Assembly: GCF_006345805.1 (NCBI RefSeq)
Contig: NW_021829119.1
Coordinates: 1 to 6,992 of the forward strand
DNA: 6,992 nucleotides
Direction: 5' to 3'
Origin: Octopus sinensis
Lineage: Eukaryota
The stretch's first letter is position 1. The number at the start of each line of letters is the position of its first letter. Shown in pieces: positions 44 through 5,726 of this stretch. The translations under genes and the position numbers were made by a program. Below the pieces are notes generated by a model. The model had not been told where the DNA came from, ran no database searches, and saw only the letters and a program-made list of their open reading frames with translations.

Positions 44-47
<4 letters not shown>

Positions 48-48
<1 letters not shown>

Positions 49-202
49 GATGGGCTTCTTTCAGTTTCCGTCTACCAAATCTACTCACAAGACTTTGGTC
101 GCCCGAGGCTATAGTAGAAGACACTTGGCTCGAGGTGGCCACGCAGTGGGACTGAATCTAGCACTATGTGGTTGGTACTTACCACACAGCCACTCCTGCG
201 CC

Positions 203-1166: not shown

Positions 1167-1626
1167 TGTAATGATTGCCTAGTTCCCTTTCATGAATGAA
1201 GTAGTCATTGTATGAAAATTGGGGTAGAAATAATAACCAAATGCCCTCAATTTAACCGTTATCCATCTGCTATGTGAGGATGCATTAGATGTCCTAGATT
1301 AATACGTCTAAAATTAATTAGGGATGGCCATATTGGCAAAATCATTTGATCATATCCATAAGTCTCGGTCGATACAAGAACCTAATTCTTTTATGAAATC
1401 CACCGATGTTAGGATGTTGTGATGTTCATTCTTTTCCAAGAAGTCACAACCTGTATTTTTCAAGTGACTTCAGCTGAGAATTGAAACCCAAACGTCGGTT
1501 TACCCCAACCGTTGCAGCTCCTATTTTGCTCGTTAGATATTAAGATCTTAAGACTAAAATGAAATGGCGTTCTTTGTTGTTGTTGTTAGTGACCTTGGTG
1601 CTTAACTCCTGGTTATTTCTGATTAA

Positions 1627-1847
1627 GGCGGCGAGCTGGCAGAATCGTTAGCGCGCCGGGTGAAATGCTTAGTGGTATTTCGTCTGTCGTTACGTTGTGA
1701 GTTCAAATCCCGCCGAGGTTGACTTTGCCTTTCATCCTTTCGGGATCGATAAATAAAGTACCAGTTTCGCACTGGGGTCGATGTAATCGACATAATCCCT
1801 TTGTTTGTCCCCTCTATGTTTAGCTTCTTGTGGGCTGTAAAGAAATA
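1627..1847 (+). mobile_element. tRNA-derived SINE, family B (Meta-domain-like core), full length with 13-bp TSD
   Basis: Starts GGCGGCGAGC; A box TGGCAGAATCG at 1637-1647; B box GTTCAAATCC at 1701-1710. Central GCCTTTCATCCTTTCGGGATCGATAAATAAAGTACCAG (1727-1764) resembles the MetaSINE-type domain (recall). Flanked by the perfect direct repeat TATTTCTGATTAA at 1614-1626 and 1848-1860. Homologous to 3534-3747. Confidence 0.92.
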
Positions 1848-1997: not shown

Positions 1998-2202
1998 AGA
2001 AATTCTTCATTCGAGTCATTCACGACCGTCTCTTCTTGTTTTCAAGTAAAGAGTATCTATATTTAGGACACCATTATCCAAAAACGGTGTGAAATGATAA
2101 GATGCGATTTGTGGGAGCTATAACTGTTGTTTATAACAAGTCGAGTAAACCATGTAATGAAGAAAGAAGTAGAGTCAAGTGGAGTTCCTTCCATAGTACA
2201 GT

Positions 2203-2578
2203 CCCCAAAGTCCATCCCCTCCTCACCGTGGTGGGGACGCTGGCAACAGGTAGTGTCAGAGCTATGCCGTCGGGAACTTCGGTTCCTGGTAGGGCCACCC
2301 AAGCGGGATTGGTCTGACACCGAGTGGTATTAGGGCCACAACCCGGCAGACGGAGCTCTGGTGAAAATCCTCAGAGTGTCTATTTCGGCAACCGGCGGCT
2401 CCTCGGTCGTTCTGTCCCTGCATCTGCTGACAATCTGCGGCAAACAGGATGTCTCTACATGCGCGATTGTCGGGGACCGCTTGTGAAATCCACATATTCC
2501 CACGAAACTTCTTCCATGGTAGAAGAAGCCGACTCAACCCGCCCAGGGTGAATGTCGCCACAAGTACAAGTAAGTATA
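2203..2578 (+). mobile_element. Non-autonomous RTE-clade-derived retroposon (RTE 5' UTR-like head plus short-tandem tail, no ORF)
   Basis: GC-rich island in AT-rich DNA. Flanked by CATAGTACAGT (2192-2202) and CATAGTATAGT (2579-2589), 10/11 identical. Ends in CAAGTA CAAGTA AGTA (2561-2576). Motifs CGTGGTG...GAGCTATGCCGT...GGTAGGGCCACCCAAG match remembered BovB/Expander (RTE) 5' UTR motifs. Confidence 0.65.
2220..2339 (+). ncRNA. Candidate structured RNA element in the RTE-like 5' end
   Basis: Stems read directly: 2220-2226/2231-2237 (loop CGUG); 2253-2260/2313-2320 (8 bp perfect); 2266-2277/2282-2295 capped by cUUCGg; 2298-2300/2305-2307; 2324-2328/2335-2339. Confidence 0.5.
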
Positions 2579-2949
2579 CATAGTATAGTACTGATATTTA
2601 TTTGATCGTTGTAACTGAAACAGAGTCGGTCTTGGCCGGATTTTGAAACATGATACATAGAACAGCAACACCAAAGTCGCTCTTTTAAAAGTCACACTTT
2701 TGTTAACCCCGGATTTTAAAGTAATCACTAACAAAATGCGACACACAGGATTTTCTGAATGGCACGCAAAAATAAAAAGAAACCTTGAAAGCTTTTAGCT
2801 GATTACCCCGATTGATGATAAGTCATGTCTGATGCGGCCTATTTCTCGAAAAAGTTTGCCCGCATCTTTGAAATCTAAAGTATTGTCCAACCATATCGTC
2901 AATCCGGAGTTCTTTAAAAAACACAAGTACCACTAGGATGTTACGAAAC

Positions 2950-3495
2950 ATATGATGGTCTATCAAACTATTGATCTGATGGTCGATTGATCTACTTTTA
3001 CAGACAGCCACAGATAGTCTGATGGACCCTTGGTCTTTGCCTAAGCCTAGGTTGGTCTTCGGATTAATTCATCTGATGGTCCATTGATCTTAATCTACAA
3101 CCTGTAACTATCTTTCTGTCTGTTAGTCTGATGATCTACTGGCCCTTGTCTCAATCAGAGATAGTCTGTCTGATATTCCAAGTGACCATTTGGCTATGTC
3201 TATAGTCTGAGGTCCTTTGATCTATATCTACAACCAATAATAGTCTTTTTCTTCGATGGTCAACTCTTCTGTTGTTCCCTTAGTATGTTTAAAGCTACAG
3301 ATGGTCTCTGTCTCTATTGGTCTAACGATCTCTTTGCCTATATCTACAACGAATGACGGTCTTTCGATCTGTTGGACTAATGACCTAATTACACATTATC
3401 TACTATCCTGTTGGTCTGTTTCCACAACCAGTGATAGACTATCTCTCTGTTCGTCTGATGGTCTACGGATCCGCTGGTGTGAGGGCCCTTGATCC
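2950..3495. repeat. Degenerate minisatellite, unit ~40-60 bp (TCTGATGGTC...GATCTATATCTACAACCA...ATAGTCT)
   Basis: TCTGATGGTC-like words start at 2975, 3018, 3072, 3127, 3169, 3206, 3252, 3297, 3321 and 3454; TCTACAAC-like words at 3094, 3227, 3343 and 3421. Confidence 0.7.
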
Positions 3496-3533: not shown

Positions 3534-3747
3534 TGTTTCAAGTTCTGGCACAAGGCCAACAATTTTGGGGGAAGGGGTAGTCGACCCAGGGTTACATCGA
3601 CCCCAGGATTCAACTGATACATATTTTATCAACCTCGAAAGGACAAAAGTCGACCTCGGCTCCATTTGAACGCAGGACGTAAAGACGGACGGAGTTCCGC
3701 AAAACATTTTTCCCGGCGCGACAACCATTCTGCCAGCTCACCGCCTT
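3534..3747 (-). mobile_element. tRNA-derived SINE, family B, diverged copy with a different 3' tail
   Basis: Minus strand starts AAGGCGGTGAGCTGGCAGAATGGTT and contains GTTCAAATGGAGCCGAGGTCGACTTT and GGGGTCGATGTAA, matching 1627-1790. Flanking direct repeats AATTGCAAATATT (3521-3533) and AACTGCAAATATT (3751-3763). Confidence 0.88.
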
Positions 3748-3945
3748 GATAACTGCAAATATTGGCGGCGTTTAGTGGGACAATTCTTCATTTTTGCTGG
3801 CTTAGTTTTGGCTTTAGTTCTTCAAAAATGTTAGCTTGTTTTTAGTAGATCTCAGCCACGCTCATGCTGGGATATCAACTGCATATCCATCATCACATTT
3901 TACACTAAATATTAAAATAACTTCAGAGTGAGAATATTTGTTATA

Positions 3946-4335: not shown

Positions 4336-4480
4336 TGCAGACGTGAGATGCCGTGAATCTGTTTGTGTCGCAACCACATGGTTCCGGGTTCAATCTCACT
4401 GCGTTTTGTCGACTATAGCTTTGGGCCGACCAAAACTTTGTGAGTGGATTTCGTAGACAGAAACTGAAAGAAGCCCGTTG
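4336..4480 (+). mobile_element. tRNA-derived SINE, family A, copy 2 (5'-degenerate, internal deletion)
   Basis: CAACCACATGGTTCCGGGTTCAATCTCACTGCG...ACTATAGCTTTGGGCCGACCAAAACTTTGTGAGTGGATTTCGTAGACAGAAACTGAAAGAAGCCCGTTG followed by a (TA)n tail; matches the reverse complement of 48-204. The 5' boundary is approximate. Confidence 0.85.
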
Positions 4481-4617: not shown

Positions 4618-4738
4618 CGTCAGGCTTCTTTCGGTTCCCGTCTATTCGCTCACAAGGATTTGGTAGGCGAGGTTGTAGTAGAATGGGACTGAACCCGGAA
4701 CCATGTGGTTGGTAAACAAGCTACTTACCACACAGCCA
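4618..4738 (-). mobile_element. tRNA-derived SINE, family A, copy 3 (internally deleted)
   Basis: Minus strand TGGCTGTGTGGTAAGTAGCTTGTTTACCAACCACATGGTTCCGGGTTCAGTCCC (A and B boxes) ... GAAAGAAGCC; same orientation as and homologous to 48-204. Confidence 0.85.
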
Positions 4739-4885
4739 TATATTTATATATGTATGTGTGTGTATGCATGTATGCATATATGTATATATGTAGGTGTGCG
4801 TATGTGTGAGTGTATATAGACAGACATGCATGCACACACACACAACAATATCTGTGTATATGCGTGCATATACATATATGTATGT
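4739..4885. repeat. Degenerate (TA/TG/CA)n low-complexity tract
   Basis: TATG/TGTG/CACA repeats. Confidence 0.8.
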
Positions 4886-5398: not shown

Positions 5399-5726
5399 AT
5401 GGCCCAGTGGTTAGGGCAGCGGACTCGCGGTCATAGGATCGCGGTTTCGATTCCCAGACCGTGCGTTGTGAGTGTTTATTGAGAGAAAACACTTAAAGGT
5501 TCACGAGCTCCGGCAGAGGGTCGTGACGAACCCTGCTCTACTCTTTCACCACAACTTTCTCTCACTCTTACTTCCTGTTTCTGTTGTACCTGTATTTCAA
5601 AAGGACCACCCTTGTCACACTCTGTGTCACGCTGAATCTCTCCGAGAACTACGTCAAGAGTACACGTTAATTTCACGAGCAGGCTGTTCCGTTGATCAAC
5701 TGGAAGCCTCGTCGTCGTGCGACGAC
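5399..5726 (+). mobile_element. tRNA-derived SINE, family C (octopus-type), slightly 5'-truncated
   Basis: A box TGGCCCAGTGG (5400-5410); B-box-like GGTTTCGATTCCC (5443-5455); tRNA-like head, ~270-bp unrelated body, ending in a GTCGTC-GTGC-GACGAC hairpin and a (TA)n field. Resembles octopus tRNA-derived SINEs (recall). Confidence 0.8.

What the first reader, a model, noticed from the sequence alone, without database searches (positions are those of the whole stretch)
2201..2340. Compact multi-stem RNA at the 5' end of an RTE-derived retroposon: candidate ribozyme or translation element of unassigned class
Seen in sequence: (1) hairpin UCCUCAC-[CGUG]-GUGGGGA (2220-2237); (2) perfect 8-bp stem GUGUCAGA/UCUGACAC (2253-2260/2313-2320) closing a junction; (3) inside it, GCCGUCGGGAAC-UUCG-GUUCCUGGU(AG)GGC with an extra-stable cUUCGg tetraloop, plus a small CCC-AAGC-GGG hairpin. 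GUGG (2228-2231) is complementary to CCAC (2295-2298), allowing a pseudoknot; GUCCCCA (2201-2207)/UGGGGAC (2232-2238) is an alternative pairing. From memory, BovB and fish Expander/Rex3 5' UTRs keep the junction words (CGUG, GAGCUAUG, GGGYCACCCA) while the closing stem differs yet still pairs, which would be covariation. Established: non-LTR elements often carry 5' self-cleaving ribozymes (HDV-like in R2, L1Tc and some RTE; twister in Schistosoma RTE). Inference: this may be a conserved, possibly catalytic RNA. The HDV fit is incomplete (no GG for P1.1, weak P2), and hammerhead, twister and pistol cores are absent.
Basis: partly seen in the sequence, partly recalled or inferred. Interest (0 to 1): 0.72.

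Follow-up and report, generated by a model that had tools for sequence, protein, structure and literature searches.

The report
Damaged ribozyme head of mini retrotransposon
This is one copy of a common 380-base jumping element made from the two ends of a longer retrotransposon; its first 160 bases match the fold of hepatitis-delta-type self-cutting RNAs, with an unusually large extra arm, so intact copies likely cut themselves out of host transcripts at their first base, while this copy has lost the two bases at the cut site and probably cannot.

Summary
Window 2201-2576 is a bipartite non-autonomous element: 95% identical to the 5' 318 bases and 98% to the 3' 57 bases of a 3.4-kb endonuclease + reverse transcriptase LINE (L213). 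Its head (2199-2357) is an HDV-like double pseudoknot, not an unassigned class. The 'alternative' GUCCCCA/UGGGGAC pairing is P1. P1.1 is CA/UG here and G-C or A-U in relatives. The catalytic C (2347) and P2 3' strand lie beyond 2340. In 87 homologs found only by P4 words, the catalytic C is kept in 81 and P1.1, P3 and P2 covary. Family 5' ends coincide with the predicted cut site. This lineage has a U-U in P3 and a 4-bp P2, and this copy lacks the first two P1 bases. Cleavage is untested. RTE ribozymes and bipartite RTEs are known; I found no Rfam model or description of this P4 arm, but could not read the key 2011 paper. The scan noted this reading before, in this genome and others.

The parts
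2192..2202 (+). left target-site duplication (11 bases, 1 mismatch to the right copy); its last two bases overlap the element, which is 5'-truncated by 2 bases
2199..2206 (+). P1 5' strand position; family begins G-C at 2199-2200 (predicted cut 5' of 2199); window has host C-A there, so the first two pairs are lost
2216..2219 (+). P2 5' strand (CCCC), only 4 bp next to P3 in this lineage
   Evidence: register inferred from relatives
2220..2232 (+). P3 (UCC/GGU, first pair U-U) and L3 (U2223, C2227, G2228 match the U-C-G of the HDV descriptor)
   Evidence: descriptor in PMC6326823
2233..2242 (+). P1 3' strand (one extra G at 2233, or an 8-bp P1) and J1/4 U-G forming P1.1 with A2225 and C2224
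   Evidence: P1.1 covariation
2346..2357 (+). J4/2 with predicted catalytic C2347 (C-A-G-A, fits C-R-R-A) and P2 3' strand 2352-2355 (window has A at 2354 where most copies have G)
2358..2518 (+). rest of the LINE 5' UTR, ending at the first AUG; 2201-2518 is 95% identical to L213:205-522
2508..2528 (+). deletion junction inside a 7-bp stem (2508-2514/2522-2528) that in the full-length LINE is predicted to pair the 5' UTR end with the ORF end
2517..2576 (+). LINE 3' end (98% to L213:3580-3636) with CAAGTA-type repeat tail 2561-2576
2579..2589 (+). right target-site duplication

Best explanation
The stretch is the head of a short non-coding element built from the two ends of an endonuclease-plus-reverse-transcriptase retrotransposon (likely RTE clade), and it has the covarying double-pseudoknot pattern of an HDV-like ribozyme that likely cuts intact elements out of read-through transcripts at their first base, while this 2-base-truncated copy is probably inactive. 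Steps: (1) shown: bipartite make-up, target-site duplication, hundreds of copies, full-length partner; (2) shown by covariation in relatives: P1.1, P2, P3 and a branched P4, with conserved U20, G25, C75, A77, A78 (HDV numbering); (3) shown: family 5' ends fall at position +1 of P1 in families with different P1 sequences; (4) inferred: C2347 acts as general acid, cleavage 5' of G2199 leaves a 5'-OH RNA, the LINE protein binds the 3' tail and reverse-transcribes it at a nicked target; (5) inferred: the short element arose when copying skipped across the stem that pairs the 5' UTR end with the ORF end; (6) inferred: this copy lost +1/+2 by microhomology at insertion and has four more substitutions in P2 and P4.
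For: Copies start at one point: G at +1 in 25 of 32 family-A heads, C at +1 in 16 of 22 family-B heads, C in 11 of 14 in one metagenome family, with mixed flanks upstream (TSDs). In 87 of 100 metagenome hits with full flanks, found by P4 words only: C75 81, A77 81, A78 78, U20 81, G25 71 of 87; P1.1 paired in 76 of 84 (G-C 67, A-U 9; 0 of 1000 shuffles); two P3 pairs and five of eight P2 pairs exceed shuffles. Curated 26-row MAFFT alignment: 86.4% of cells paired, 33 of 45 pairs with two-sided change, 0 of 500 shuffles, slid controls at most 49.7%. 15 of 81 of these loci have an endonuclease-start motif within 400 bases downstream, 0 antisense. Partner L213: RVT_1 above cutoff, endonuclease hits below cutoff, close homologs are ~1000-aa single endonuclease + RT proteins. 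RTE ribozymes and bipartite RTEs are reported in PMC6765202 and PMC5786205.
Against: No cleavage data. This lineage departs from the norm: U-U as first P3 pair, 4-bp P2 (about 7 bp is usual, PMC4908430), an extra G or 8-bp P1, G at position 77. Folding of intact copy L002 prefers an alternative in which the P2 5' strand takes the P1 3' strand (P1 0.40, P2 0.00; pseudoknots not modelled). P1 covariation did not exceed shuffles in the unselected alignment (best 28 of 1000). The 26-row set was chosen for good pairing, and relatedness inflates all counts. The boundary is blurred in a second metagenome family (+1 C 10 of 26) and among 9 family-A copies not chosen for length (G 3 of 9). 18 family-A matches against 208 intact lack the 15 bases that hold C75 and the P2 3' strand, and several still start at +1. 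An internal promoter can also give starts at +1 (L1Tc, PMC3185411).
Confidence: 0.7

Rival explanations
1. The fold descends from an HDV-like ribozyme but in this lineage is catalytically dead or very slow; the +1 boundary is set by an internal promoter or by the fold blocking 5' decay.
For: Lineage-wide U-U in P3, 4-bp P2, extra G; competing fold in L002; copies without the catalytic strand that start at +1; promoter at +1 in L1Tc.
Against: C75, A78, U20 and a 2-bp P1.1 are kept in families A, B and C. P1 differs between A and B yet the 5' end tracks it. The catalytic-strand deletion occurs on at least three junction types and in two families, which fits repeated skipping between short direct repeats during copying rather than one ribozyme-free lineage (no tree built).
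Confidence: 0.22
2. The multi-stem junction (2243-2345) is a separate ribozyme or translation element of a new class, and the HDV resemblance is incidental.
For: No Rfam match; the junction words recur in at least 100 metagenome loci and its helices covary.
Against: It always sits between J1/4 and a C-N-A-A strand of an HDV-like core whose letters were not in the search pattern. Element ends map to P1 +1, not to the junction. The proposed pseudoknot fails.
Confidence: 0.05
3. The stems are chance pairing in a G+C-rich repeat.
For: Folding z-scores of -0.5 to -2.1.
Against: Two-sided changes across divergent families, absent in slid controls.
Confidence: 0.02

Closest known systems
[quoted passage not shown] 2011, not held, seen only as cited in PMC6765202 and PMC5786205)
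   Same: Position at the element's first base; P1, P1.1, P2, P3, P4 double pseudoknot; L3 U-C-G and J4/2 C-R-R-A as in the descriptor of PMC6326823.
   Different: P1.1 is G-C or A-U with U-U (relatives) or A-U plus C-G (this lineage) instead of two C-G pairs; first pair mostly C-G in relatives (16 of 25); a ~90-110-base branched P4 with recurring sequence words; in this lineage U-U in P3 and a 4-bp P2. Whether the 2011 paper shows this P4 type is unknown to me.
L1Tc ribozyme of Trypanosoma cruzi (PMC3185411, passages)
   Same: Cut at +1 of the element, P1.1 of one or two pairs, shared with a non-autonomous partner; head may double as a promoter.
   Different: 77 bases with a simple P4, different clade; activity shown there, untested here.
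Bipartite ORF-less non-autonomous RTE elements such as RTESINE1/2, WALLSI3, RTE-N2_Lch (PMC5786205, parts 2 and 3 of 5 read)
   Same: 5' UTR joined to the 3' end of the LINE by internal deletion, keeps the LINE's own 5' end, no tRNA head (one search found no tRNA gene in the window).
   Different: This family is not named in the parts read; several independent junctions cluster at a predicted end-to-end stem.

Membership tests
HDV-like ribozyme | 6-7 bp P1 starting at the cut site | tested here: met
   Family A: 7 pairs from G+1 (perfect in 15 of 31 copies), plus one extra C/G; family B 7 pairs. This row is for the family, see next row for the copy.
HDV-like ribozyme (window copy itself) | intact P1 at +1 and +2 | tested here: not met
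   C-A replaces G-C at 2199-2200, giving two mismatches at the cut site; single P1 mismatches lower or abolish activity in PMC3774820.
HDV-like ribozyme | 3-bp P3 with L3 carrying U20, C24, G25 | tested here: inconclusive
   Met in relatives (P3 76/85, 75/85, 78/86 paired). Window lineage has the L3 letters but U-U at the first P3 pair in all five rows.
HDV-like ribozyme | P1.1 of one or two pairs | tested here: met
   76 of 84 paired, G-C 67 and A-U 9; A-U plus C-G in 29 of 31 family-A copies.
HDV-like ribozyme | P2 of about 7 bp stacked on P3 | tested here: inconclusive
   7-9 bp with covariation in relatives; 4 bp in this lineage, 3 in the window copy.
HDV-like ribozyme | J4/2 with catalytic C followed by N-R-A | tested here: met
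   C 81 of 87 unselected homologs; 30 of 31 family-A copies including the window.
HDV-like ribozyme | Mg2+-dependent, C75-dependent self-cleavage leaving 5'-OH | not testable with these tools
   Only assembled contigs were available; they cannot show RNA ends.
Bipartite non-autonomous LINE | 5' and 3' ends of one autonomous LINE, no ORF, TSD, repeat tail | tested here: met
RTE clade (partner L213) | single ~1000-aa ORF with AP endonuclease and RT, short 3' end with tandem repeats (definition recalled) | tested here: met
   L213 itself has stops and frameshifts
RTE clade (partner L213) | placement in the RTE clade by RT phylogeny | not tested
   No named reference proteins came back; the label RTE rests on architecture and recall.

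The most novel reading that the evidence does not exclude
The branched P4 arm is a clade-wide functional module of RTE RNAs, separate from catalysis, that binds the element's protein or recruits ribosomes to the uncapped 5'-OH RNA; together with a stem joining the 5' UTR end to the ORF end it would explain why RTEs so often spawn bipartite mini-elements, and it defines an HDV-like subfamily missing from Rfam.
Probability: 0.3. Interest if true: 0.65.

Novelty: new variant of a known kind. Interest (0 to 1): 0.38.

Why it matters
It gives a full structural model and cut-site prediction for a very widespread RTE head that Rfam does not detect, and it makes two open points testable: how far an HDV-like core can drift (U-U in P3, 4-bp P2, swapped P1.1) and stay active, and what the large P4 arm is for. 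RTE-1 UTRs are used in RNA-based gene writing (PMC13708176, passages), so the map could guide UTR work. The locus itself is an ordinary, probably dead copy.

Tried and rejected
Rfam scans of the window and six homologs: no relevant match. A first P4 register (columns 59-62 with 127-130) was replaced by the RNAalifold register. A hairpin at 2324-2340 was mis-specified by one base, so its zero probabilities mean nothing; the L002 fold shows it at 2324-2328/2335-2339. Viral contigs gave one chance-looking pattern hit and no protein relatives. 80 loci from prokaryote assemblies with related RT genes held no copy of the P4 words, so no outside relatives of the window's own lineage were found. Sequencing runs: no RNA holder listed; four guessed-RNA contig sets cover the family but cannot show ends, strand or level. 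Patterns mis-specified family A and count family B only. A core-only pattern gave just 4 genome hits; all carry a similar P4 layout but only 1 has the exact words, so I do not claim the words are invariant. Ruminski 2011, Webb 2009 and PMC3256349 were not held.

Full report
Observation. The evidence had to come from relatives.

The element. A search of the window's genome G000 gave 41 listed matches from 1201 candidates, 40 scored; an internal pattern has 624 matches and 0 in the reversed control. Similarity runs from 2201 to about 2576 and ends in a CAAGTA-type tail. Most close copies carry two more bases in front (G 24 of 31, C 23 of 31), outside their target-site duplications in several cases, so the family starts at the equivalent of 2199. 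The window copy has an 11-base duplication at 2192-2202 and 2579-2589 that overlaps its first two bases, so it lost those two bases at insertion (inferred). A full-length partner, L213 (3.4 kb, broken by stops and frameshifts), encodes RT and an AP-type endonuclease (below Pfam cutoff); its closest homologs are single ~1000-aa proteins with both domains. The window is 95% identical to its first 318 bases and 98% to its last 57. The RTE label rests on this architecture and recall; no phylogeny was run.

The fold. Reading outwards from the words shows the HDV layout: P1, J1/2, P2, P3, a 7-base L3, P1 3' strand, J1/4, a long P4, C-N-A-A, P2 3' strand. Two tests were run. (a) A 26-row MAFFT alignment: from 105 parsed heads, 71 passed a pairing filter and 23 remained after dereplication; I dropped L105, L160 and L202 and added the window, L191, L121, L119, L157 and L106. 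It gives 86.4% paired cells, 33 of 45 pairs with two-sided change, 0 of 500 shuffles for four of five measures (10 of 500 for the fifth), and at most 49.7% in slid controls. This set is biased towards good pairing. (b) All 87 of the 100 hits with full flanks, unfiltered (13 dropped as too short): C75 81, A77 81, A78 78, U20 81, G25 71, C24 55 of 87; P1.1 76 of 84 paired with G-C 67 and A-U 9; two of three P3 pairs and five of eight P2 pairs exceed shuffles; P1 does not (runs of C and truncated copies; best 28 of 1000). Relatedness among loci inflates both tests. The features match the HDV descriptor quoted in PMC6326823 (G1-Y, L3 U-C-G, J4/2 C-R-R-A), except that P1.1 is not C-G/C-G.

Mapping to the window. 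P1 is 2199-2205 with 2234-2240 (G2233 is extra, or P1 has 8 bp); P3 is 2220-2222 with 2230-2232, first pair U-U; L3 is 2223-2229; P1.1 is A2225-U2241 and C2224-G2242; P4 spans 2243-2345; C2347 is the predicted general acid; P2 is 2216-2219 with 2352-2355. The GUGG/CCAC pseudoknot and the two small hairpins are not supported, and the CCC-AAGC-GGG hairpin depends on a swap seen in 1 of 31 copies. 11 of 31 close copies keep every core feature; the window copy fails P1 and P2 and has changes in P4a and P4c, and its P4b probability falls to 0.13 against 0.76-1.00 in L002.

Cut site. Conservation among copies begins at P1 position +1: family A G 25 of 32, with at most 12 of 32 upstream apart from an unexplained T at -1 (18 of 32); family B, with a different P1, C 16 of 22; one metagenome family C 11 of 14. 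It is blurred in another (+1 C 10 of 26, +2 20 of 26) and among 9 family-A copies not chosen for length. HDV-like ribozymes cut at the first base of P1 (PMC4908430), so this fits cleavage, but the L1Tc head also works as a promoter starting at +1 (PMC3185411).

Against activity. The window's lineage (families A, B, C) has U-U in P3 and a 4-bp P2, and nested folding of L002 favours a competing pairing. A 15-base deletion that removes C75 and the P2 3' strand has 18 matches against 208 intact in family A and 9 matches at 6 loci against 27 in the family-B-weighted pair; many such copies start at +1. They fall on different deletion junctions and in both families, which fits repeated skipping between short direct repeats during copying, but no tree was built.

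Origin of the short element. Following a lead from earlier scan notes, I mapped junctions: 52 of 59 loci had both ends; 51 leave the LINE at L213 516-539 and 45 rejoin at 3552-3587, and these two stretches are predicted to pair. In the window the junction closes a 7-bp hairpin at 2508-2528. That skipping across this stem makes the mini-elements is inferred.

What is known. HDV-like ribozymes in RTEs and bipartite RTE elements are reported in PMC6765202 (passages) and PMC5786205 (parts 2 and 3 of 5 and passages). Other papers seen as passages only: PMC4758252, PMC10879173, PMC6326823, PMC13708176, PMC3774820, PMC9115989, PMC3185411, PMC8495972, PMC4908430. No supplements were read. Eight searches listed no paper that, from title or abstract, describes this P4 arm, but Ruminski 2011 and Webb 2009, with their supplements, were not held and may show it. 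A core-only search gave 4 genome hits with the same P4 layout and mostly diverged words, so the words are not invariant. The host was not identified here; earlier notes on this genome call it likely an octopus. Earlier scan notes reached the same reading; my reading was written down before I opened them.

Verdict. A real, covarying HDV-like head on an ordinary bipartite retroposon; a variant of a known kind, untested for cleavage, in a copy that is probably dead. Interest 0.38.

Noticed in passing
L298 (G000:C10219, about 12050-13000) and L320 (G000:C29:5067600-5067967), L003, L323: Head-to-tail arrays of the element's 5' head (about 157-187 bases per unit), each unit restarting at or next to position +1; the units in L298 and L320 lack the catalytic strand.
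   Followed up: partly
window 2346-2360 equivalent in family copies: Recurrent 15-base deletion between short direct repeats that removes the catalytic C and the P2 3' strand.
   Followed up: partly
position -1 of family-A copies (window 2198 equivalent): T in 18 of 32 heads, more than at other upstream positions; may be target or microhomology preference.
   Followed up: no
window 1622-1790 and 3646-3750: Two inverted copies (79% over 105 bases) of another short interspersed repeat with a tRNA-like head by eye.
   Followed up: no
window 44-200, 4340-4480, 4620-4740, 5400-5720: Fragments of further short interspersed repeats, flanked by (AT)n tracts.
   Followed up: no
window 2946-3480: Degenerate repeats of about 50-57 bases, 61-73% alike (families D14, D15, D19).
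   Followed up: no
L084, L088, L089, L104, L144: A metagenome family with the same P4 and J4/2 but about 11 extra bases in the L3 region.
   Followed up: no
L214-L293: Many prokaryote genome bins hold contigs with eukaryote-type non-LTR RT genes, probably contamination.
   Followed up: no
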